Source: a virus. From it: a DNA stretch of 64,000 bases. The notes beneath the pieces are model-generated. The model worked only from the letters and a program-made list of their open reading frames with translations, did not search any database and was not told the DNA's origin. The number at the start of each line of letters is the position of its first letter. Within the stretch, counting starts at the first letter, position 1. This document shows positions 10,617-33,632 of this stretch, one piece after another. The translations under genes were made by a program, and so were the position numbers. The stretch spans positions 32,001 to 96,000 of IMG/VR virus record IMGVR_UViG_3300045988_025287; one strand, written 5' to 3'.

Positions 10617-11176
10617 GATATACAGATTTATTCGCAAAGTAATTATTCTATGAAATGCAAATTATCCTCATATGTTGTGAAACATAGTTTAACCACGTTA
10701 AAGTATAATAATATAAGTTAGGTATGCCCTTATAAAGACTTAGGTAGCGCTAAGGACTATATTATTATACTTCTCTTCTTAATGCAACTACATCTCTCGT
10801 AAGCAATAACCGTGACAAGTCGGGGAGAGAACACATTTGAGTTTATGTGTCAAGAATGCAGAGTCAAGAATACTATATGAAACCTACTGGAGATAGGTAA
10901 TGCACAACCGTCAAGAGTGTAAGGAAGTATAGTATAATCCACGTGGTAGATGCAGTTGTAGGTTCCAACTGGTGCACATCTTTTAGAGACAGTAACCAAG
11001 CTCGAAGTAAGCAGAGCGAAGACAATTAGCTATACCTCGATAGGCTTAATGAGGTGCTTAACAGTCTGACACTAACTGAACAATAAGTGTCTGTTCATCC
11101 TCAAAGAGGAAAATGTTGAACTCTACAGACATGTAGACAGCTCCATTAACTCTAGCTGTAACAAAGAGTTATTAAT
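10617..11176 (+). ncRNA. ORF-free G+C-rich island D
   Basis: About 560 nt with no ORF in the track, visibly G+C-richer than coding DNA. Bracketed by the two homologous hairpins. Confidence 0.3.
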
Positions 11177-11270
11177 AGAGTAAGAGAATAGAAACGTGTA
11201 TATCTACGTAGTTCATAGCATAGCTTATAGTCGTATAACACAACATCGATTATATTAATGCGCTTACTCT
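11177..11270 (+). repeat. Conserved hairpin element, copy 2 (AGAGTAAG-AGAATAG..TAATGCG-CTTACTCT)
   Basis: 8-bp stem 11177-11184/11263-11270, followed by ATTATTTTTATT (terminator-like). Stem differs from copy 1 at two base pairs, both compensated. Confidence 0.7.
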
Positions 11271-11309
11271 ATTATTTTTATTGCATTAACTAACAAATAA
11301 ATCAATTAT

Positions 11310-11540
11310 ATGGAAACAAAAGTAATATTAGCTACATTTTACGTAATATTAGGCATATATAGTATGATAGTTTATTTAAGATACGGCTATAAAAAATATG
11401 AGGTGCTAACAGTAGCAGACATATTAGTATCTCTATTGATTATAGTTGGATGGCCGCTTCCATTACTAATGTTATTAGTCCATCATTTTCTACTTTTTAT
11501 ATGTAAACTTGAGGAAATTGTAATACTAAGAAAGAAATAA
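11310..11540 (+). CDS. Small membrane protein
   Basis: Intact ORF, two hydrophobic segments. Confidence 0.7.
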   Translation: METKVILATFYVILGIYSMIVYLRYGYKKYEVLTVADILVSLLIIVGWPLPLLMLLVHHFLLFICKLEEIVILRKK

Positions 11541-11560
11541 TTAATAAATAATATCAAATT

Positions 11561-11989
11561 ATGAAGAAAATAACTTGTATTCAGAATTATGTAATAGATA
11601 AGCTTATTGAAGACAAGAAATTGTCTACAAATAGTCTATTAGATGCAGTTTCTAAAGTATGTTCAAAGGAACAGTTTGATAATATACTGTCTATTCTTAT
11701 AGAAACACCTATTCCTTGTACAAATATGCCTGAATTAGAAAGCAAAACAAACTTAGTAAGAATGAGTATGTTTATATCTGAAGAAGCTGGCAATGAAACT
11801 AAATTGAGGATAATAAAAATACTAATGAACCAATTTGGTCTTGGTCTTAAACAAACTAAAGAATATGTAAATAGTTGTATAGGAAAATATAATATATTAC
11901 CTAAAGCTGTTATGCAAGCAGAAATAGATGAAGTTACAGAAAAATTAGAACCTTACAATGTAATTGTATCTACAGCAGGGTTTTATTAA
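11561..11989 (+). CDS. Protein with ribosomal L7/L12 C-terminal-domain-like region
   Basis: KLRIIKILMNQFGLGLKQTKEYVNS...AEIDEVTEKLEPYNVIV parallels E. coli L7/L12 [25 protein letters not shown]...AEALKKALEEAGAEVEV (recalled, not aligned by software). Confidence 0.55.
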   Translation: MKKITCIQNYVIDKLIEDKKLSTNSLLDAVSKVCSKEQFDNILSILIETPIPCTNMPELESKTNLVRMSMFISEEAGNETKLRIIKILMNQFGLGLKQTKEYVNSCIGKYNILPKAVMQAEIDEVTEKLEPYNVIVSTAGFY

Positions 11990-12493
11990 TAAGTTAATGC
12001 AGTAAATATTACTGCATCTTTAAGGTGAGAATCCTTAACAATCCTGTGGGGCTTATATCTCGTGTTTATAGTAGTGGTGTCACGAGTATTAGTGCAGACG
12101 TTAAAATCAGGAACAACTATATTAGACGGCAATATTACCTTCTTCCAGTCGCAAATGTCATATAGTTTAATATAGCCAAGTTCGTTCGTCCTTAGATTTA
12201 TGGTATTAGCCATTTGTTTATTTAATCATCGTTTCATTCTTAATTGTACAGATTGATTAATTAAGCATAACAGTAAGCGTACTGTTGTCAGTATATTTAT
12301 ATGTGAATATAGATATACTGATTGCACTCATTAAGGTAGCCTTCATGTGGCGAGTGTGTTAAGTAATAGGTCTAAAGAATCTTCCAGTTTGTACCTATGA
12401 AAACTAATACCTTTAACCGCCAGCTCACGCGGTATATAAGACAGGATTGCCGGACCCGCAGGTGTAACGAGATAAATACCTGCATTTTTTATT
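11990..12493 (+). ncRNA. ORF-free G+C-rich island E
   Basis: Starts with an 8-bp hairpin ATGCAGTA/TACTGCAT. Contains GTGCAGACGTTAAAATCA (12092-12109), shared with island F. Ends in the terminator at 12458-12493. The only ORF (minus strand, 11986..12213) is doubtful. Confidence 0.35.
12458..12493 (+). terminator. Rho-independent terminator
   Basis: Stem GCAGGT/ACCTGC (12458-12463/12478-12483), 14-nt loop, then ATTTTTTATT. Confidence 0.65.
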
Positions 12494-12531
12494 AACCTTA
12501 ATAATTATCAAGTTGTAAACTTTAATTTAAT

Positions 12532-12614
12532 GCCCAGATGGCGAAATAGGTAGACGCTAAGGTCTTAAACACCTTTGACCATTGGTCGTGCGGGTTCGAC
12601 TCCCGCTCTGGGTA
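12532..12614 (+). tRNA. tRNA-Leu (anticodon UAA), class II
   Basis: Cloverleaf by hand. Acceptor GCCCAGA/TCTGGGT, anticodon stem AAGGT/ACCTT with loop CTTAAAC, variable arm GACC-ATT-GGTC, T arm GCGGG-TTCGACT-CCCGC. Confidence 0.9.
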
Positions 12615-12643
12615 CAATTAGTAATTAACATTAAAATCTATTT

Positions 12644-12949
12644 ATGATAAAAGTAATTAAATATTATGAACTAAATCGAATTAGTAGAATATTAGTAATA
12701 GCAATAATAACATATATTGTTGGTATTCTAATTAAAAGAGAATACGAAGAGTCCAAAACTGTATATAATTTTGTAGATTTACAAATGAAGTACAAGAATT
12801 ATATATTAGTCAATAAAGAGAGAAGTATTACTAATGATGAAGAATATAAGTTCACATTACGTAATCCTATTACAAACCAAAATAGTACTGTATATGTAAA
12901 GTACTATCTATATCATCACGTATATTTTGTTGGAGATACTATAAAGTAA
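12644..12949 (+). CDS. Hypothetical protein with N-terminal TM segment
   Basis: Intact ORF. Confidence 0.7.
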   Translation: MIKVIKYYELNRISRILVIAIITYIVGILIKREYEESKTVYNFVDLQMKYKNYILVNKERSITNDEEYKFTLRNPITNQNSTVYVKYYLYHHVYFVGDTIK

Positions 12950-12968
12950 CATTTTAATCAATAAAAGT

Positions 12969-13337
12969 ATGAAAAGAGAAGAAATTAAATCTTACAAAGA
13001 CGCTTGTAGAGTAATAGGTAGAAAACCTAGAACTTATAAAGATAAGCATTTGAATCTGTATGAACAGCTTAGTGCAATTATAGCTGCTCTGAATTTCATT
13101 AGTAATGATAATAAACCTTGGACACCTAAGTTCGATTATTATTACATCTATTCTTGGTTATACAGAAAAGATGGATATAATAAATCTGCGGGTTTGTTCT
13201 ATTTGGCTTCTTACGCTGGGTTGGGCGCTTCCGGTGCTCTTGTCGGGACTTCTCTGAAAATAAAAGAGAGAGAAGATGGAAATTACATAATAGAAAACTT
13301 TAAAGAACTACTCCAAGATTGGTTTTGGGGAGATTAA
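12969..13337 (+). CDS. Hypothetical protein (122 aa)
   Basis: Intact ORF. Confidence 0.7.
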   Translation: MKREEIKSYKDACRVIGRKPRTYKDKHLNLYEQLSAIIAALNFISNDNKPWTPKFDYYYIYSWLYRKDGYNKSAGLFYLASYAGLGASGALVGTSLKIKEREDGNYIIENFKELLQDWFWGD

Positions 13338-13362
13338 TTACTAATTTTAAAACATTATCAAA

Positions 13363-13821
13363 ATGGAAAATGAAATGATGGCGAGACCCGAACCGCCAAG
13401 AAGAACTGTTTGGGTAATAGTAGCAATCATTGCCTTAATAGGCATGTTTGGAGCAATGATTTACGCAGAGCGTGAAAACATTGCCAATTTCTTAAATGGT
13501 GTGAACCAAGAAGAAATACAAGAAGATCCTCAAGTTATCATTGAGGAACCTGTAACAACAATACAGGATATTCTCGACATGAGAGAGCAAATGAGAGAAG
13601 ATAGAAGAGTTGATAGTGTATTTTTAGCTATGCCAAAGGTAGTATTAATTGATATTTTGATGCAGCATGGTACGTCATTGTCTATAAAAGACATAATTTA
13701 CATATATGAATCAAACACATCAACGTACAACACAGTATTATCTGGGGCAAGAGCTCAAAAATATCTTGATGACTCTATACAAACTCATGTTATATCAACT
13801 GTTGTAAACGACTCTATTTAA
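13363..13821 (+). CDS. Hypothetical protein with one TM segment
   Basis: Intact ORF. Confidence 0.7.
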   Translation: MENEMMARPEPPRRTVWVIVAIIALIGMFGAMIYAERENIANFLNGVNQEEIQEDPQVIIEEPVTTIQDILDMREQMREDRRVDSVFLAMPKVVLIDILMQHGTSLSIKDIIYIYESNTSTYNTVLSGARAQKYLDDSIQTHVISTVVNDSI

Positions 13822-14211
13822 GACTAGACCTTCTTTTTAGTTAATATTAGAGTCTAGTATACTCAGTCTGTGAAGATAGAGTATACGTCCTCAGAAAATG
13901 ACAAACATGTGGGGCGGGAGTAAATAAGTAAAACTAAGCAGTAGTATTATATATCAGTAAGGATACTACGCCGAATCTGATTGTTTTGTTTATTTATAGT
14001 CGTGCGGACGTTAAAATCATGTACTCCAATAAGATTTAGTTTGACAGCTATTTCTGCTTACGAGTTAAAACTATAGTGAGAGTCATAGTAAGTAACGATT
14101 GTAGTCGTTTATCTTTGTCTTATAACAAATGCTATAAACTAAGTTGGCACTAACTTAATTAAATCCTGAGTGCCCAGGCGTCATTATTAACAATTTAAAT
14201 TTTTTAGAAAC
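13822..14211. ncRNA. ORF-free G+C-rich island F
   Basis: Starts with a 7-bp helix ACTAGAC/GTCTAGT. Contains GTGCGGACGTTAAAATCA (14002-14019), 17/18 identical to island E. Confidence 0.35.
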
Positions 14212-14442
14212 ATGAAAAAGATTGGAGATTTTTTATTTGTAGAGCAATGCTTTACAGATACTGAAGAAACAAAAACTGCGGTAGTCAATATTAATTATAT
14301 TGACAGCATAACTCAGAGCTGCAATGACAAACTTGGAGACATTGTAGTCATAGAGACAGATAATACAAGAATTATCTGTAAAGATCCAGAGAATTTCTTT
14401 ACTGAGTTTGAGAATCTAATTTCAGATGAAGAAGAATGGTAG
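14212..14442 (+). CDS. Hypothetical acidic protein (76 aa)
   Basis: Intact ORF. Ends in TAG (14440) with an in-frame TAA three codons later (14452). Confidence 0.6.
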   Translation: MKKIGDFLFVEQCFTDTEETKTAVVNINYIDSITQSCNDKLGDIVVIETDNTRIICKDPENFFTEFENLISDEEEW

Positions 14443-14699
14443 TCAATAAAGTAAAAGAGGGCCGTAAATTAACTGAAATAAAGTTCAGTAACGACCACTA
14501 TCTCGCAAATCTATTAGCTACTACTAAAGTACTTGGCATATCGTTAGAACGAGCTAAAAAGCTATGTAGAACAGTACCAGGTAAGAGAGTAGAAGTTAAT
14601 CCACCTATTGAAATTATCAGTAAGTTAAATACTGATAAATTATTTGAAGAATTAGAGGAGTATGAAATAGAAGTATCTATTAGTATTCCCAGTAAATAA
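14436..14699 (+). CDS. Hypothetical protein, second L7/L12-CTD-like candidate
   Basis: KVLGISLERAKKLCRTVPGK...DKLFEELEEYEIEVSI follows the same pattern as the L7/L12 C-terminal domain. Weaker than 11561..11989. Confidence 0.5.
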   Translation: MVVNKVKEGRKLTEIKFSNDHYLANLLATTKVLGISLERAKKLCRTVPGKRVEVNPPIEIISKLNTDKLFEELEEYEIEVSISIPSK

Positions 14700-14716
14700 C
14701 TTATCAAAAGTAAAAC

Positions 14717-15184
14717 ATGAAAGCAATTGTTATTTCATTTGAAGGAGCTATAAAAGACGATAATATCTTTGCATCATTATTAGCTTCTTTTGTAGAGAAA
14801 CATGTAAACACTGAATCTGTAAATATCCATATTTTATCAGATATAGATGTAACAAATGCGCTAATAGCTAAGTGCTTAATTCCATCTGCTATAACAGTAG
14901 ACAGACCATCTAATCCGCAAATACCAGTAGTAGAAGATTTCTGTAAGAAGATTGTTTCATCTATTGGTTCACCCGCACTTAAAACACGAGAATTGTTAAA
15001 CTCAGAACTATGCAAGTTCTTAGTACAACAAAATCGTGAAGTTATTAGTGTTCCAGTAAGTATTATTGCTAAAGTAAATACTACTTCTGCGTATTACGAA
15101 CATCGCAAGGTACTAAAGGAATACGGTTTATCTGCATTACCTGAGTTATTACGCGATATTAACCCTCTATTTAAATTTTACTAG
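14717..15184 (+). CDS. Hypothetical protein (155 aa)
   Basis: Intact ORF in the co-directional block. Ends in TAG (15182) with a backup TAA at 15200. The antisense ORF 14704..15015 was rejected. Confidence 0.65.
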   Translation: MKAIVISFEGAIKDDNIFASLLASFVEKHVNTESVNIHILSDIDVTNALIAKCLIPSAITVDRPSNPQIPVVEDFCKKIVSSIGSPALKTRELLNSELCKFLVQQNREVISVPVSIIAKVNTTSAYYEHRKVLKEYGLSALPELLRDINPLFKFY

Positions 15185-15185
15185 T

Positions 15186-15284
15186 ATGGCAAAGAAGAAT
15201 AATGAAGAGCCTCCAAAGGAATTTAAAAAGAAGCCAAAACATAAAAAGATGGAGCCCTATAATCGTAAGAAAGCATGGAAATAG
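15186..15284 (+). CDS. Small Lys-rich peptide (32 aa)
   Basis: Hand translated: MAKKNNEEPPKEFKKKPKHKKMEPYNRKKAWK. Ends in TAG. Confidence 0.35.
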   Translation: MAKKNNEEPPKEFKKKPKHKKMEPYNRKKAWK

Positions 15285-15421
15285 ATAATAATTGTCCTAC
15301 ACTTGATAATCATATCAACTGTAGTGAATGTACTCATGAGTGTAAACTCAGAATGCAACCAAAGAATAGTAAAGAAGTAGAGGTTCCGCCAGAGCCTCTA
15401 CTTAATACTATATATTACTAA
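15275..15421 (+). CDS. Small Cys-containing protein (48 aa)
   Basis: Hand translated. CPTLDNHINCSECTHEC cluster. TAA at 15419-15421. Confidence 0.4.
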   Translation: MEIDNNCPTLDNHINCSECTHECKLRMQPKNSKEVEVPPEPLLNTIYY

Positions 15422-15460
15422 TTTAAATTGTTAGTAAAATGGTGGATTCAGTCAACCCAA

Positions 15461-15610
15461 AGAACTGTTTAAGACTAGAACCCTAATGGAAATTGTCAAT
15501 CAAGAGTACAATGGACTATACAACGGTCAACCACATTATATGTAGGTCAGGAGAAGGCAGGGAGTCTCCTGTTGAATAAGAAGTACAAATAGACAGGAAC
15601 AGTTCTTTTT
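15461..15610 (+). ncRNA. Structured element G, closed by a 9-bp long-range helix plus U-run
   Basis: AGAACTGTT (15461-15469) pairs with AACAGTTCT (15598-15606), followed by TTTTT. Internal 7-bp hairpin CAGGAGA/TCTCCTG (15548-15554/15565-15571). Confidence 0.4.
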
Positions 15611-15663: not shown

Positions 15664-15891
15664 ATGTCATATTATATGACCAATATAATTATTACTCCTA
15701 CTTTATATGAGGAGAAAAGATTAGAAGCTATATCATACTTTAGCAGATGTAGTAGAGAAGCAGCACTAAGAATCCACAAAAAGAACAAATATAAAGATAT
15801 TAAATTGAAGCTAAACACTATAGCAGTAGCTATAATCGAGGCTAAAAAGAGATATTTTGATGATTGTTCTTTTATTAAGATTATATTATAG
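15664..15891 (+). CDS. Hypothetical protein (75 aa)
   Basis: Intact ORF. TAG stop with a TAA one codon later. Confidence 0.55.
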   Translation: MSYYMTNIIITPTLYEEKRLEAISYFSRCSREAALRIHKKNKYKDIKLKLNTIAVAIIEAKKRYFDDCSFIKIIL

Positions 15892-15935
15892 TGTTAAATA
15901 AATTTTATTGTTAAATCAATTAAACTGTATTCAAA

Positions 15936-16403
15936 ATGGCAGAAGTAAAGAAAATGAACATCCTTATAGAGGATGTAAATGGAGAAAACATCCAGGATGT
16001 AATCGCTAATTCAAGTAAGGTAACTGAAGAAATTGCAGAAGAAGCAGCAAAGAAAATTGCTGAACGACGCAAAGAAAAGTTAACGAAAGATTTAGTAGCT
16101 GTTGTTCAGAAGAGCGAATATACGGTATCCTCAGCGGTACTACAAGTTCGTCGTTCTAACAGAACAAACCAACGTATTAAACAGTACCTAAAAGATCTTG
16201 CTACACTGAAAGAAGAGATTGTAAGTGGAAAGAAACCTGTATCTGCATGGAAAGAGGAAGCTTATAATCTAAAGAAACAGTACGACAAGGATCTTATTGA
16301 GATTGGAAAGGATATCGACAAGTCCTTAAATGAACTTAACGAACTCTTTCCAGACTCTTGGCAGTGGAGATACGATGATTTAGTTCCTAATACTAATAGA
16401 TAA
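15936..16403 (+). CDS. Hypothetical coiled-coil-like protein (155 aa)
   Basis: Intact ORF, charged heptad-like composition. Confidence 0.75.
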   Translation: MAEVKKMNILIEDVNGENIQDVIANSSKVTEEIAEEAAKKIAERRKEKLTKDLVAVVQKSEYTVSSAVLQVRRSNRTNQRIKQYLKDLATLKEEIVSGKKPVSAWKEEAYNLKKQYDKDLIEIGKDIDKSLNELNELFPDSWQWRYDDLVPNTNR

Positions 16404-17048
16404 CTAAATCAAAACAAATAAAAGAGGTTCCAAGCTTAGAATCTTTGAATCAATAGCTTAGTATGTGAGTCGGAAATAGTTCTTTTGAACTCTAGGGCCT
16501 GAGGCATACAAGGACCTGAATTAACAGGTCTCATACAGAATTTTAAATCAGTTATGGGGAACTACCGTGAACTACTGATCATAAGTCTGAGATCGCGACA
16601 ATAAGATTGTCCTCTAGAAATAGAGAAACGCTCTAGTCGTGACATCAAGTTTAGACTGAATAATATGAATCTTTGAATCGTTTAAAGTATCTATACTTTA
16701 ACTATTATTCGTGTATTATCAAGATCAGTATAAGAGAACTAACCATTCTCAAGACCATAGGGTATATGACTTTGGTCGGTCATATACCCACAATAGAGTA
16801 GGTATAATACCGAACTGTAAAAAGAATTGACTGTTAGGTCTATTTATGCCTTCAGGTGACCGCGGGGCAGTACCGCGCACATCCACTAAAAAAATATAAT
16901 AAGGGTGTGAAATAGTATTGAACCGTTGAAACAGAATAGAATAGGTCAATAAGCAGATAACTGGCAATACAAGTTATGTAACGGACTATACTGGTATCGC
17001 AGCGTGATAACAGAGTCCAACGGCTAAGCTAATGTCGTAGAAAGCTGG
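16404..17048 (+). ncRNA. ORF-free G+C-rich island H
   Basis: About 645 nt. 13-nt exact direct repeat GAATCTTTGAATC at 16439-16451 and 16667-16679. GC hairpin CGCGG-GGCAGTA-CCGCG near 16862-16880. Ends at a tRNA-like module. Confidence 0.35.
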
Positions 17049-17128
17049 AGTAAGGATAGTACTCAGATGGTAGAGCGGTGAGATAATATCAAAAGCTGGT
17101 ATCGGAGGTTCGAGTCCTCCCCTTACTA
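17049..17128 (+). ncRNA. tRNA-like element without a canonical anticodon arm
   Basis: 7-bp acceptor AGTAAGG/CCTTACT. D-arm-like GTAC-TCAGATGGTA-GAGC. Perfect T arm GGAGG-TTCGAGT-CCTCC. I could not fold the 27 nt between the D and T arms into a 5-bp stem with a 7-nt loop. Confidence 0.5.
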
Positions 17129-17167
17129 CAAATAAAAAATTAAGTTTAATCAATAAATTAATTTGAA

Positions 17168-17446
17168 ATGGGATTAATGAATTTTATTAGACAGAATCTT
17201 CCAGAATCATGGGAGAAAGCTGCAACAGAGATGAGAATGAAGACTGAATTAATAACTCGTCTTCATAATGTAGTACCTCGTGCTTATAAGAATAAGTATC
17301 ACTACAAAGAAGGAATATCTTATATTAGAAGAGTATTCAATACTAAATGTGATATAATACATTTAGTAGATGCTACTGATATAGATATCACTAAATGGAA
17401 TGAATTAAGTAGTAAAATAAAAGAATACGAATATCAATGCGTGTAA
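17168..17446 (+). CDS. Hypothetical protein (92 aa)
   Basis: Intact ORF. Confidence 0.7.
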   Translation: MGLMNFIRQNLPESWEKAATEMRMKTELITRLHNVVPRAYKNKYHYKEGISYIRRVFNTKCDIIHLVDATDIDITKWNELSSKIKEYEYQCV

Positions 17447-17622
17447 GATATTTTGCTTGGTTTGACTCTAAACATGAAAGAACAGAGTTCATTAACTTAC
17501 TCAGATCAGCTAAATCTGATATTGATGCAGTTAATAAAGTGATGCAAAAATATCCAGAGTTAACTTTATCAGAAGTATCTGGAATAGTAAATAACTTTAA
17601 AAAAGAAATTAATCAACCATGA
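17437..17622 (+). CDS. Hypothetical protein (61 aa)
   Basis: Intact ORF. TGA stop overlaps the next ATG (ATGA). Confidence 0.6.
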   Translation: MRVRYFAWFDSKHERTEFINLLRSAKSDIDAVNKVMQKYPELTLSEVSGIVNNFKKEINQP

Positions 17623-26880: not shown

Positions 26881-26951
26881 TCTCATGTAGCTCAGTGGTA
26901 GAGCCGCTACTATGTAGTGTGAACGCGTTGGTTCGAGTCCAACCATGAGAT
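26881..26951 (+). ncRNA. tRNA-like element with aberrant anticodon arm (loop contains CUA)
   Basis: Good acceptor TCTCATG/CATGAGA, D arm GCTC-AGTGGTA-GAGC and T arm GTTGG-TTCGAGT-CCAAC. The anticodon region CGCTA-CTATG-TAGTG gives a 5-nt loop, or a 7-nt loop ACUAUGU with C at position 33. Confidence 0.5.
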
Positions 26952-26973
26952 CTAACTTTTAAATACTTATAAT

Positions 26974-33409: not shown

Positions 33410-33632
33410 TTTTGTAGATAATCCTATAAGCAGCCTACGCTAGGCATAATATAGCGATACGTGAGTAGCATGCCGCTATGTGAGATAAGAAGCAATCGAC
33501 GGTAATACGCCGAATGTAAGGTGTGACGGAGGTATCAAAATTCATAGAATAGGGATAGCATGCACTCACGTTTTTATGATAGTAATGGTTAATTAAGGTT
33601 CGATTCCTTGGCTATCACTAAAAATATATCAT
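33410..33632 (+). ncRNA. ORF-free G+C-rich island M with a tRNA-like 3' module
   Basis: 14-bp imperfect inverted repeat ACGTGAGTAGCATGC (33459-33473) / GCATGCACTCACGT (33558-33571). The 3' end carries AAGG-TTCGATT-CCTT plus an acceptor-like GATAGC.../GGCTATC (33554-33617), but only about 34 nt sit where the D and anticodon arms should be. Confidence 0.35.

What the first reader, a model, noticed from the sequence alone, without database searches (positions are those of the whole stretch)
16404..17128. Island H ends in a tRNA-like module lacking an anticodon arm, with short duplications at its edge
The 80-nt module at 17049-17128 has a 7-bp acceptor stem, a D-arm-like segment and a textbook T arm (GGAGG-TTCGAGT-CCTCC). 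The 27 nt in between (GGTGAGATAATATCAAAAGCTGGTATC) cannot form a normal anticodon stem-loop. AAAGCTGG occurs both immediately before the module (17041-17048) and inside it (17091-17098), and CTGGTATCG occurs at both 16991 and 17094. This looks like a recombination or insertion scar. The 645 nt upstream are ORF-free, G+C-rich and contain a 13-nt exact repeat (16439, 16667). A tRNA-like 3' module could act as an RNase P/Z processing handle for the upstream RNA, as in MALAT1-mascRNA or plant-virus TLS elements. That idea is speculation.
Basis: partly seen in the sequence, partly recalled or inferred. Interest (0 to 1): 0.65.

Follow-up and report, generated by a model that had tools for sequence, protein, structure and literature searches.

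The report
tRNA-like handle after phage tmRNA
The 80-base element is a stripped-down tRNA look-alike sitting directly after a gut-phage copy of the ribosome-rescue RNA (tmRNA), and it most likely serves as a cutting signal for the host's tRNA-processing enzymes, not as a decoding tRNA.

Summary
The window comes from a crAss-like phage (Suoliviridae; closest relative cr53_1). The module at 17049-17128 is real. It has a 7-bp acceptor stem, a weak D arm, a textbook T arm and no canonical anticodon arm. ARAGORN does not call it, and the Rfam tRNA model gives 18.9 bits against a cut-off of 29.

The "upstream RNA" is a circularly permuted, two-piece tmRNA gene (about 16753-17048; Rfam RF04321 56.1 bits; G3:U70; tag GNTSYVTDYTGIAA). 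Its conserved 3' block abuts the module.

All 127 related tmRNA loci carry a tRNA-like element at this position. It always keeps a 12-bp acceptor+T stack capped by a T loop: 112 are perfect, 15 have one mismatch, and 11 of 12 pairs covary. The interior ranges from 11 to 91 nt, falls into at least 13 types, and is swapped between nearly identical flanks.

Similar elements with defective anticodon arms sit upstream of the DNA polymerase gene (26881-26952) and the primase gene (33577-33617).

Best reading: a tRNA-derived punctuation element, comparable to a plant mitochondrial t-element, cut by RNase P and RNase Z. The cuts would define the tmRNA 3' end and free the downstream mRNA. This is inferred from comparison only. 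No RNA ends were mapped.

The parts
16404..16752 (+). Upstream non-coding stretch. It contains a RAGATH-20-like RNA (hairpin GACCUG-AAUUAA-CAGGUC at 16513-30; conserved ACUGAUCA..GAUC at 16574-94) and the repeated motif GAATCTTTGAATC (16439-51, 16667-79). It is not part of the tmRNA or the module.
   Evidence: RAGATH-20 at 29.6 bits, E=0.019, below the cut-off of 101.4. RAGATH-20 scores above the cut-off at the equivalent position in L003, L006 and L007; the repeat is exact here and in cr53_1, and is replaced in concert by GTATCTTTGTATC in cr4_1 and L004.
16753..16789 (+). 5' extension of the tmRNA acceptor piece. An 11-bp hairpin (16760-70 / 16779-89) has a loop UUUGGUCG that can pair with the upstream GACCA (16753-57), forming a putative pseudoknot.
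   Evidence: inverted repeat I1, 100% complementary; cr60_1 and cr56_1 keep the same loop with a different stem (GACTATGTAGG/CCTACATAGTC), so the stem covaries. The pseudoknot itself is inferred.
16826..16888 (+). tmRNA acceptor piece. P2 5' strand at 16826-40. T arm CGCGG-GGCAGUA-CCGCG at 16861-77. 3' acceptor strand CACAUCC at 16878-84. Discriminator A at 16885, then CUA (CCA is not encoded).
   Evidence: RF04321 tmRNA_permuted at 56.1 bits (cut-off 47), and alpha_tmRNA partial at 42.6 bits. Coordinates.
16889..16902 (+). Short intervening loop, predicted to be excised so that the gene yields two RNA pieces. In relatives this segment is 150-900 nt and may hold an endonuclease gene.
16903..17048 (+). 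tmRNA coding piece.
- 5' acceptor strand GGGUGUG at 16903-09 (G3:U70 with 16882).
- D-loop analogue at 16910-22.
- P2 3' strand at 16939-50.
- PK1 region at 16951-80.
- Tag reading frame at 16963-17004 (GNTSYVTDYTGIAA), with stops UGA UAA at 17005-10.
- Helix 5 at 16983-17018.
- Invariant 3' block AACGGCUAAGCUAAUGUCGUAGAAAGCUGG at 17019-48.
   Evidence: ARAGORN calls a permuted tmRNA with homologous tags in 49 relatives; helix 5 folds in all 45 distinct variants, using different sequences; the 3' block is conserved across three subfamilies.
17049..17128 (+). tRNA-like module (type A).
- Acceptor 5' strand at 17049-55.
- Degenerate D arm at 17056-76.
- Non-canonical 27-nt middle at 17077-17103.
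- T arm at 17104-20.
- Acceptor 3' strand at 17121-27.
- Discriminator A at 17128.

Predicted RNase P cut at 17048/17049. Predicted 3' processing after 17128.
   Evidence: Comparative evidence.
17129..17167 (+). Trailer and leader (CAAAUAAAAAAUUAAG...UUUGAA) running to the ATG of the next ORF (17168-17446). It would become the 5' leader of the downstream mRNA after 3' processing of the module.
   Evidence: the bona fide phage tRNAs have the same N73-C-[A/T]-A trailer; similarity between type-A loci ends right after ..CCTTACTAC.

Best explanation
The module is a tRNA-derived, non-decoding tRNA-like element. It keeps a tRNA "top half" with an elbow and lies immediately 3' of a phage-encoded two-piece (circularly permuted) tmRNA gene.

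**Proposed mechanism**
1. The tmRNA, the module and the next gene are transcribed together. This is inferred: they share a strand, and no promoter or terminator was found between them.
2. Host RNase P recognises the 12-bp acceptor/T stack and the T loop. It cuts between G17048 and A17049, creating the 3' end of the tmRNA coding piece.
3. RNase Z or exonucleases, followed by the CCA-adding enzyme, process the module after A17128. This is the same route expected for the phage's real tRNAs and for the tmRNA acceptor end. It releases an RNA of about 80 nt and frees the downstream mRNA with a 39-nt leader.

**Shown versus inferred**
- Shown: the anatomy, its conservation and covariation, and the tmRNA identity.
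- Inferred: co-transcription and every cleavage step.
For: **The upstream RNA is a tmRNA**
- RF04321 scores 56.1 bits against a cut-off of 47.
- The acceptor stem has G3:U70, and the tag is GNTSYVTDYTGIAA**.
- ARAGORN calls a permuted tmRNA with homologous tags in 49 relatives.
- Helix 5 is maintained with different sequences in 45 variants.

**The module follows the tmRNA everywhere**
- A tRNA-like element follows the invariant tmRNA 3' block in all 127 genuine loci. In 88 of the 112 loci with a perfect stack it starts within 10-11 nt of the search motif, directly after AAAGCNGG.

**Only the top half is conserved**
- The conserved features are a 12-bp split helix (acceptor/T = 7/5, 6/6, 5/7 or 4/8), a TTCGANT loop, and A73 followed by CAA.
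- 112 loci are perfect and 15 have one mismatch.
- 11 of 12 pairs show double-sided changes. There are 128 compensatory cells, against 29.5 in shuffles and 14-21 in slid controls.
- The interior varies from 11 to 91 nt in at least 13 unrelated types.
- Rfam accepts only 2 of the 10 module-bearing loci tested as tRNA.

**It shares a processing signature with real tRNAs**
- The trailer N73-C-[A/T]-A matches the phage's bona fide tRNAs and the tmRNA acceptor end.

**The device recurs elsewhere**
- tRNA-like elements with absent or aberrant anticodon arms lie 15-22 nt upstream of the polymerase and primase genes, here and in relatives.
- The census found 146 same-strand minihelices, 13 on the opposite strand and 1 in shuffled sequence. 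ARAGORN calls only 40 of the 146.

**Transcription context**
- No + strand terminator and no convincing promoter lies in 15800-17600.

**Precedent**
- Plant mitochondrial t-elements (PMC1920247).
- The statement that permuted tmRNA transcripts are cleaved by tRNA-processing enzymes (PMC11915505).
Against: - No transcript ends, RNase P or RNase Z assays, or expression data were available. crAss-like phage promoters are unknown, so co-transcription is an assumption.
- Folding energy alone is unremarkable (z = -1.1).
- Within module types the interior is structured and conserved. Examples are anticodon-stem covariation in type B, D-stem covariation in the cr53 type, and only 1 change in the 27-nt middle between the window and cr60_1 while both stems changed. 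That hints at a function beyond a handle.
- Cassette swapping between near-identical flanks could reflect selection on the interior.
- Some loci have 58-87 extra nt between the tmRNA block and the module.
- One type is a bona fide tRNA-Ile(GAU) (52.8 bits). In those phages the neighbour may simply be a working tRNA gene.
- The internal AAAGCTGG copy is non-random and unexplained.
Confidence: 0.6

Rival explanations
1. The module is released as a stable, CCA-tailed tRNA-like small RNA with a job of its own. Candidates include a decoy or sponge for host tRNA-targeting nucleases or tRNA-binding enzymes, or an aminoacylated minihelix. The swappable interior would set the specificity. This reading is compatible with cleavage by RNase P and RNase Z, but places the main function in the released RNA.
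For: - The interior falls into at least 13 types that are exchanged between flanks at least 97% identical (49 such pairs).
- There is within-type structural covariation, and the type-A middle is highly conserved.
- Both module edges are mosaic breakpoints.
- Several types keep real anticodon-loop motifs, such as CUGAUAA or NUU loops.
Against: - No target was found. Complementarity of the interior to the rest of the window is at chance level (29 9-mers against 19 +/- 8.5 expected).
- Some versions have only 11-15 nt of interior (L098, L012, L049) and still occupy the site, so no interior is strictly needed.
- The acceptor stem has no recognisable identity set such as G3:U70.
Confidence: 0.15
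2. It is a decaying tRNA pseudogene, a relic of a tRNA gene that once neighboured the tmRNA, with no present function.
For: - It is clearly tRNA-derived. Relatives at the same site range from a true tRNA-Ile through near-cloverleaves to stubs.
- The D stem is eroded by a 2-nt insertion in the window lineage.
- Published annotations treat comparable low-scoring tRNA-like calls in another Crassvirales genome as putative pseudogenes.
Against: - Neutral decay would hit the acceptor and T stems as well. Instead all 127 loci keep the 12-bp stack, and 11 of 12 pairs are maintained through double changes.
- The element is never lost despite frequent replacement.
- The helix total stays at 12 bp even when the junction moves (7/5 to 4/8).
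Confidence: 0.1
3. It is a working but non-canonical tRNA that decodes. One possibility is the missing suppressor for the phage's TAG-recoded late genes.
For: - Late genes on the minus strand (37.8-63 kb) give long ORFs only if TAG is read as sense, and no CUA tRNA is called in the window.
- A preprint on an amber-reassigned Crassvirales genome notes that reassigned phages, including one of the Suoliviridae, can lack a detectable suppressor.
- A 5-bp/7-nt hairpin can be drawn at 17086-17102.
Against: - There is no CUA anywhere in the interior.
- The drawable loop AAAAGCU lacks U33 and R37 and is displaced by 8 nt.
- Rfam tRNA scores 18.9 bits, and ARAGORN makes no call.
- Sister modules at the same site have no room for any anticodon arm.
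- Only 64 kb of a roughly 100-kb genome was seen, so a suppressor may lie elsewhere.
Confidence: 0.05
4. It is mainly a DNA-level feature: a recombination, homing or attachment site at the tmRNA 3' end, with the RNA fold incidental.
For: - Mosaic breakpoints lie at both module edges.
- Endonuclease genes sit inside the tmRNA intervening segment in cr56_1, cr113_1, cr6_1 and cr4_1.
- AAAGCTGG is duplicated non-randomly.
Against: - Compensatory base-pair changes are a signature of selection on RNA structure, not on a DNA site.
- No integrase context was seen.
- The same kind of element occurs at other intergenic sites with no tmRNA nearby.
Confidence: 0.07

Closest known systems
Plant mitochondrial t-elements (tRNA-like processing signals; Forner et al. 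2007, PMC1920247)
   Same: - Non-canonical cloverleaves that keep the GGTTCRANYCC T arm and an acceptor stem.
- They lie between or next to genes on long transcripts.
- Their ends coincide with RNA 5' and 3' termini.
- They are cut by RNase P and RNase Z, and the excised element can acquire non-encoded C or CCA.
   Different: - The setting here is a dsDNA bacteriophage relying on bacterial RNase P.
- It is attached to a tmRNA, not an mRNA.
- It is present in every relative, with a strictly kept 12-bp stack and an interior exchanged like a cassette.
- Cleavage has not been demonstrated here.
mascRNA / MALAT1 and MEN-beta tRNA-like 3' modules (from my own knowledge)
   Same: A tRNA-like structure at the 3' end of a longer non-coding RNA. 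RNase P cleavage makes the mature 3' end of the upstream RNA, and RNase Z plus CCA addition releases a small tRNA-like RNA.
   Different: - Those are eukaryotic nuclear lncRNAs, and mascRNA keeps a cloverleaf with a poorly conserved anticodon loop.
- Here the upstream RNA is a tmRNA coding piece, and the module comes in many unrelated interior versions.
Two-piece (circularly permuted) tmRNA genes of Alpha- and Betaproteobacteria and Cyanobacteria (RF04321; PMC11915505)
   Same: The upstream RNA has the same gene order: acceptor piece, intervening segment, coding piece. It also has a G3:U70 acceptor stem and a tag ending in a hydrophobic residue plus AA. Processing by tRNA enzymes is the accepted route.
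   Different: - It is phage-borne, in the Suoliviridae.
- The intervening segment ranges from 14 nt to more than 900 nt and can carry endonuclease genes.
- It is always followed by a separate tRNA-like minihelix. I found no description of that arrangement.
Canonical phage tRNA genes and tRNA pseudogenes
   Same: - Shared ancestry. The acceptor stem, T arm and N73-C-[A/T]-A trailer match the phage's own tRNA-Leu and tRNA-Arg.
- One sister type is a true tRNA-Ile(GAU).
   Different: - There is no canonical anticodon arm.
- It fails both tRNA detectors.
- Its stems are under structural selection, unlike a pseudogene.
tRNA-like domain of bacterial Y RNAs (YrlA; PMC4201824, seen by title and abstract only)
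   Same: A bacterial or phage-associated non-coding RNA that mimics a tRNA without decoding.
   Different: Y RNAs carry a Ro-binding helix and are encoded next to rsr. Neither feature is seen here.

Membership tests
Canonical tRNA (Rfam RF00005 / ARAGORN) | Covariance-model score at or above the gathering cut-off (29 bits), or a detector call | tested here: not met
   18.9 bits, E=0.57, covering only 17077-17128; no ARAGORN call.
Canonical tRNA (Rfam RF00005 / ARAGORN) | 7-bp acceptor stem and a 5-bp T stem with a TTCRANT loop | tested here: met
Canonical tRNA (Rfam RF00005 / ARAGORN) | A 5-bp anticodon stem with a 7-nt loop (U33, R37), placed 1 nt after the D stem and 4-5 nt or more before the T stem | tested here: not met
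   the only 5-bp register (17086-17102) is shifted and has the loop AAAAGCU (A33, C37). All other registers give 3 pairs or fewer.
Canonical tRNA (Rfam RF00005 / ARAGORN) | 4-bp D stem with a GG-containing loop | tested here: inconclusive
   GG is present. The stem is only CUC/GAG here, but a full GCUC/GAGC in cr60_1.
Permuted two-piece tmRNA (RF04321), for the upstream RNA | Covariance-model score at or above the cut-off (47 bits) | tested here: met
   56.1 bits, 16826-17007.
Permuted two-piece tmRNA (RF04321), for the upstream RNA | Alanine identity pair G3:U70 in an acceptor stem whose 3' strand lies upstream of its 5' strand | tested here: met
   GGGUGUG (16903-09) pairs with CACAUCC (16878-84); relatives vary positions 4-7 but keep G1-G2-G3:U.
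Permuted two-piece tmRNA (RF04321), for the upstream RNA | Tag reading frame ending in a hydrophobic residue plus A-A, followed by a stop, inside helix 5 | tested here: met
Permuted two-piece tmRNA (RF04321), for the upstream RNA | Actual cleavage into two pieces, SmpB binding and trans-translation activity | not testable with these tools
   Needs RNA end mapping and biochemistry.
t-element-type tRNA-like processing signal | Acceptor/T minihelix with a T loop, kept by selection while the rest of the cloverleaf is dispensable | tested here: met
t-element-type tRNA-like processing signal | Located at boundaries between same-strand transcription-unit components | tested here: met
t-element-type tRNA-like processing signal | RNA termini coincide with the element's ends, and RNase P and RNase Z cleave it | not testable with these tools
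   No transcript data or enzyme assays were available.
Neutral tRNA pseudogene | Substitutions accumulate in stems without compensation, and the element is sporadically lost | tested here: not met
   128 compensatory cells; present in 127 of 127 loci.

The most novel reading that the evidence does not exclude
The tRNA-like modules are more than passive cut sites. They would form a hypervariable, horizontally exchanged cassette system. A constant top half guarantees excision and CCA-tailing by host enzymes. The swappable bottom half would be an effector that titrates or misleads host tRNA-directed defences or enzymes, which would make it an RNA-based counter-defence locus tied to the phage's own ribosome-rescue RNA.
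Probability: 0.12. Interest if true: 0.85.

Novelty: new variant of a known kind. Interest (0 to 1): 0.55.

Why it matters
- It would show that an abundant family of human-gut phages punctuates its early transcripts with tRNA top-half mimics, alongside hatchet ribozymes and RAGATH RNAs. That borrows host RNase P and RNase Z the way organelles do.
- It would show that a phage two-piece tmRNA depends on such a handle for its 3' end.
- It gives annotators a rule: a 12-bp split stack plus a T loop, followed by A-C-[A/U]-A. The rule covers elements that tRNA finders miss or mislabel, such as "tRNA-Leu(taa)" in cr60_1 and "tRNA-His(atg)" here.
- It flags a recombination hot spot.
- It offers a compact natural part for releasing RNAs in Bacteroidales.

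Tried and rejected
- **ARAGORN and Rfam on the window.** No tRNA call for the module. ARAGORN also misses the window's tmRNA.
- **Thermodynamic folding.** z = -1.1, not informative.
- **Antisense targets of the interior.** At chance level.
- **Amber-suppressor idea.** TAG recoding is real, but the module has no CUA and no proper anticodon loop.
- **CTGGTATCG duplication as a scar.** p is about 0.08, and the repeat is lineage-specific.
- **ARAGORN's tmRNA 3' coordinate, which overlaps the module in cr60_1.** The tmRNA call ends at nearly the same position (675-682 in the extracted regions) whatever module type follows, so it is not evidence that the module is part of the tmRNA.
- **RNAalifold on 18 coding pieces.** Indels misalign helix 5, and the only stems returned are invariant. 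Per-sequence folding was used instead.
- **Pairing of the 3' block AAAGCUGG with the 5' end of the acceptor piece.** By eye, no complement was found.
- **Promoter and terminator scan.** Nothing on the + strand.
- **GG in the interior as an elbow signal.** Present in 37 of 38 distinct interiors, but expected by chance in the longer ones, so it is weak evidence.
- **Literature searches.** No description of this arrangement was found.
Full report
**1. What is in the sequence**

The stretch 17049-17128 reads AGTAAGG | ATAGTACTCAGATGGTAGAGCG | GTGAGATAATATCAAAAGCTGGTATC | GGAGG TTCGAGT CCTCC | CCTTACT | A.
- The 7-bp acceptor stem and the T arm are perfect.
- The D stem has only 3 bp.
- ARAGORN does not call the element.
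- The Rfam tRNA model gives 18.9 bits against a cut-off of 29, and the match covers only the 3' half.
- Folding energy is unremarkable (z = -1.1).

Scanning every register of the 27-nt middle finds one 5-bp stem with a 7-nt loop, AUAUC-AAAAGCU-GGUAU at 17086-17102. It sits 9 nt after the D stem and 1 nt before the T stem, and it lacks U33 and R37. The element therefore lacks a canonical anticodon arm, but it is not hairpin-free.

- AAAGCTGG is at 17041 and 17092. CTGGTATCG is at 16991 and 17096.
- The AAAGCTGG recurrence is non-random (40 of 20000 shuffles).
- The 9-mer is not clearly non-random (162 of 2000 shuffles) and is absent from other loci that carry the same module type.
- G+C enrichment is slight.

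**2. Context**

The window is a crAss-like phage of the Suoliviridae, subfamily Loutivirinae. Its closest relative is cr53_1, at 92.5% identity.

Rfam finds a dense set of non-coding RNAs on the + strand:
- RAGATH-6, RAGATH-7 and RAGATH-9
- two hatchet ribozymes
- three tRNAs
- at 16826-17007, a permuted tmRNA (RF04321, 56.1 bits against a cut-off of 47)

The Rfam alignment and the coordinates give the tmRNA anatomy:
- P2 5' strand at 16826-40
- T arm CGCGG-GGCAGUA-CCGCG at 16861-77
- 3' acceptor strand CACAUCC-A-CUA at 16878-88
- a 14-nt intervening loop
- 5' acceptor strand GGGUGUG at 16903-09, forming G3:U70
- tag frame GNTSYVTDYTGIAA** at 16963-17010
- helix 5 at 16983-17018
- a 30-nt block AACGGCUAAGCUAAUGUCGUAGAAAGCUGG at 17019-48

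Evidence from relatives supports the tmRNA assignment.
- RefSeq annotates the homologous RNA in cr60_1, cr52_1, cr114_1 and cr115_1 as tmRNA.
- ARAGORN calls a permuted tmRNA with homologous tags in 49 of 130 extracted regions.
- Acceptor positions 4-7 covary while G1-G2-G3:U stays fixed.
- Helix 5 folds in all 45 distinct variants, using different sequences.
- A covarying hairpin and putative pseudoknot at 16753-89 extends the acceptor piece on its 5' side.

The "645 nt upstream" therefore holds two things: a RAGATH-20-like region (16404-16752) and a two-piece tmRNA gene (16753-17048).

**3. Comparative anatomy of the module**

I searched the tmRNA 3' block in IMG/VR and obtained 120 loci. 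With nine GenBank or RefSeq phage records added, this gave 127 genuine loci.

Every one of them has a T-loop-capped split helix downstream of the block.
- 112 have a perfect 12-bp stack.
- 15 have a single mismatch.
- The two remaining hits were unrelated sequences.

Features of the conserved part:
- The stack totals 12 bp even when the junction with the interior moves. The acceptor/T split is 7/5 in 79 loci, 5/7 in 19, 6/6 in 12 and 4/8 in 2.
- The loop is TTCGANT in 106 of the 112 perfect-stack loci.
- The next bases are A then C-A-A in 93 of 112.

On 29 of the 35 distinct minihelix sequences:
- 11 of 12 pairs show changes on both sides.
- There are 128 compensatory cells, against 29.5 +/- 5.2 in shuffles and 14-21 when the partner strand is slid.
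- The 100% pairing in this set follows from how I selected the sequences. The covariation does not.

The interior is the opposite of conserved.
- It runs from 11 to 91 nt and falls into at least 13 unrelated types.
- At one end is a true tRNA-Ile(GAU) (Rfam 52.8 bits). Next come near-cloverleaves with NUU or CUGAUAA loops that both detectors reject. At the other end are 41-45-nt stubs.
- Only 2 of 10 module-bearing loci pass the Rfam tRNA cut-off.
- Module type is poorly coupled to the flanks. Forty-nine pairs of loci share at least 97% identity over the 140 nt upstream but carry different types. One pair (L013 and L058) is 100% identical upstream.
- The same type occurs in different subfamilies, for example cr53_1 and cr115_1.
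- All 29 type-A modules in IMG/VR follow the tmRNA. Their similarity stops right after ..CCTTACTAC, with nine different continuations.

The module is therefore a cassette with breakpoints at both edges. It is often replaced and never lost.

**4. The same device elsewhere in the genome**

A scan of the window for the split-stack signature recovers tRNA-Leu, tRNA-Arg and the module. It also finds two more intergenic elements on the + strand.
- 26881-26952 is called tRNA-His(atg) by ARAGORN, but its anticodon arm folds as a 6-bp stem with a 3-nt loop.
- 33577-33617 is a 41-nt minihelix.

They lie 22 nt upstream of the DNA polymerase start codon and 15 nt upstream of the primase start codon. Relatives carry different tRNA-like versions at the same two sites, with interiors from 26 nt to about 75 nt.

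Across 1.08 Mb of related loci there are 146 such elements on the tmRNA strand. The opposite strand has 13 and shuffled sequence has 1. ARAGORN calls only 40 of the 146.

All real tRNAs, the tRNA-likes and the tmRNA acceptor end share the trailer N73-C-[A/T]-A. CCA is not encoded in any of them.

**5. Mechanism**

The features under selection are the acceptor/T coaxial stack of fixed length, the T loop, the discriminator and the shared trailer. From established knowledge, these are what bacterial RNase P, RNase Z and the CCA-adding enzyme read.

The element abuts the tmRNA 3' block. No + strand terminator or convincing promoter intervenes.

The most economical reading is a tRNA-like punctuation element.
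- RNase P cuts at 17048/17049 and makes the 3' end of the tmRNA coding piece.
- 3' processing after 17128 releases an RNA of about 80 nt and frees the next cistron with a 39-nt leader.

Two precedents fit.
- Permuted tmRNA precursors are described as being cut by tRNA-processing enzymes (PMC11915505).
- Plant mitochondrial t-elements do the same job for mRNAs (PMC1920247).

The structure, its conservation and the tmRNA identity are shown. Co-transcription and every cleavage are inferred.

**6. What does not fit neatly**

- Within a type the interior is not random. The anticodon stem covaries in type B, a 3-bp D stem covaries in the cr53 type (AUC/GAU to ACC/GGU), and a small hairpin covaries in the cr6 type.
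- Between the window and cr60_1, both stems changed by compensatory substitutions, while the 27-nt middle changed at one position.
- The AAAGCTGG copy inside the module is non-random.
- These points, together with the cassette swapping, keep alive the idea that the released RNA has its own role. I found no antisense target and no way to test charging.

The phage reads TAG as sense in its late genes, and no CUA tRNA is called in the window. The module has no CUA and no usable anticodon loop, so I rate the suppressor idea low.

**7. Novelty**

tmRNA genes are annotated in these RefSeq records. In cr60_1 the module is annotated as tRNA-Leu.

My searches of the open literature found no description of a tRNA-like handle attached to phage tmRNA, and none of tRNA-like punctuation in Crassvirales. 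One preprint lists two low-scoring tRNA-like calls in another Crassvirales genome as putative pseudogenes.

The principle is known from organelles and from MALAT1/mascRNA. The setting, the strict 12-bp rule with a sliding junction, and the cassette behaviour are new. I class it as a new variant of a known kind, with interest 0.55.

Noticed in passing
window 37799-63022, minus strand: The late genes give long reading frames (1564, 4175, 662, 615 and 1413 codons) only if TAG is read as a sense codon. TGA or TAA as sense does not help. No tRNA with anticodon CUA is called in the 64-kb window.
   Followed up: partly
window 26881-26952 (+): ARAGORN's "tRNA-His(atg)" (Rfam tRNA 46 bits) folds with a 6-bp stem and a 3-nt loop (CGCUAC-UAU-GUAGUG) where the anticodon arm should be. 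It lies 22 nt upstream of the DNA polymerase ORF. Relatives carry other tRNA-like versions at that site, with interiors of about 26 to about 65 nt.
   Followed up: partly
window 33577-33617 (+): A 41-nt minihelix (TGATAGT AATGGTTAAT TAAGG TTCGATT CCTTG GCTATCA) lies 15 nt upstream of the DNA primase ORF. cr4_1 and cr60_1 have longer tRNA-like elements at the same place. The cr4_1 element has a G3:U70-type acceptor stem and an insert of about 75 nt.
   Followed up: partly
window 10625-15608 (+): A dense array of Rfam-recognised RNAs lies between small + strand ORFs: RAGATH-6, RAGATH-7, two hatchet ribozymes and RAGATH-9. Related loci also carry RAGATH-20 or RAGATH-7-assoc just upstream of the tmRNA. 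The RAGATH motifs therefore appear to be standard equipment of Suoliviridae early regions.
   Followed up: partly
window 16439-16451, 16667-16679 (plus a degenerate copy near 16537); L133 1418, 1531, 1666; L004 1032, 1142: The direct-repeat motif GAATC-TTT-GAATC flanks the RAGATH-20-like RNA. In cr4_1 and L004 every copy reads GTATC-TT[T/C]-GTATC instead. That concerted change in all half-sites suggests a co-evolving sequence-specific binding partner, either protein or RNA.
   Followed up: partly
L006/L007 813-1394, L131 282-884, L133 2172-2669 (all minus strand): In cr56_1, cr113_1 and cr6_1, a reverse-strand gene annotated as an endonuclease lies inside the tmRNA intervening segment, between the acceptor piece and the coding piece. 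cr4_1 has a reverse-strand hypothetical gene there. In other loci (L129, L130, L012) that segment contains further tRNA-like sequences.
   Followed up: partly
window 16414-16423 and 17128-17137; 16445-16465 and 17145-17165: The sequence just after the module (ACAAATAAAA ... TTTAATCAATAAATTAATTTG) resembles the sequence just after the upstream ORF's stop codon (ACAAATAAAA ... TTGAATCAATAGCTTAGTATG). The first copy is preceded by a 10-bp hairpin (16376-85 / 16402-11). This could mark the borders of an inserted RNA island, or a second, hairpin-type processing site.
   Followed up: no
window 16861-16902: The window's tmRNA has an unusual tRNA-like domain for this phage group. It has an alpha-proteobacterial-type T loop (GGCAGUA) and only a 14-nt intervening loop. 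ARAGORN misses it, while it detects the versions with longer intervening segments in relatives.
   Followed up: partly
L051, L009, L071 (module position): One module type carries a 91-nt G+C-rich interior (GGGGCGG[CA]GGGAAAGGA[GA]CUGAUACCCAAUCCCCUCAG...) in place of the anticodon arm. It was not identified; it could be a long variable arm.
   Followed up: no
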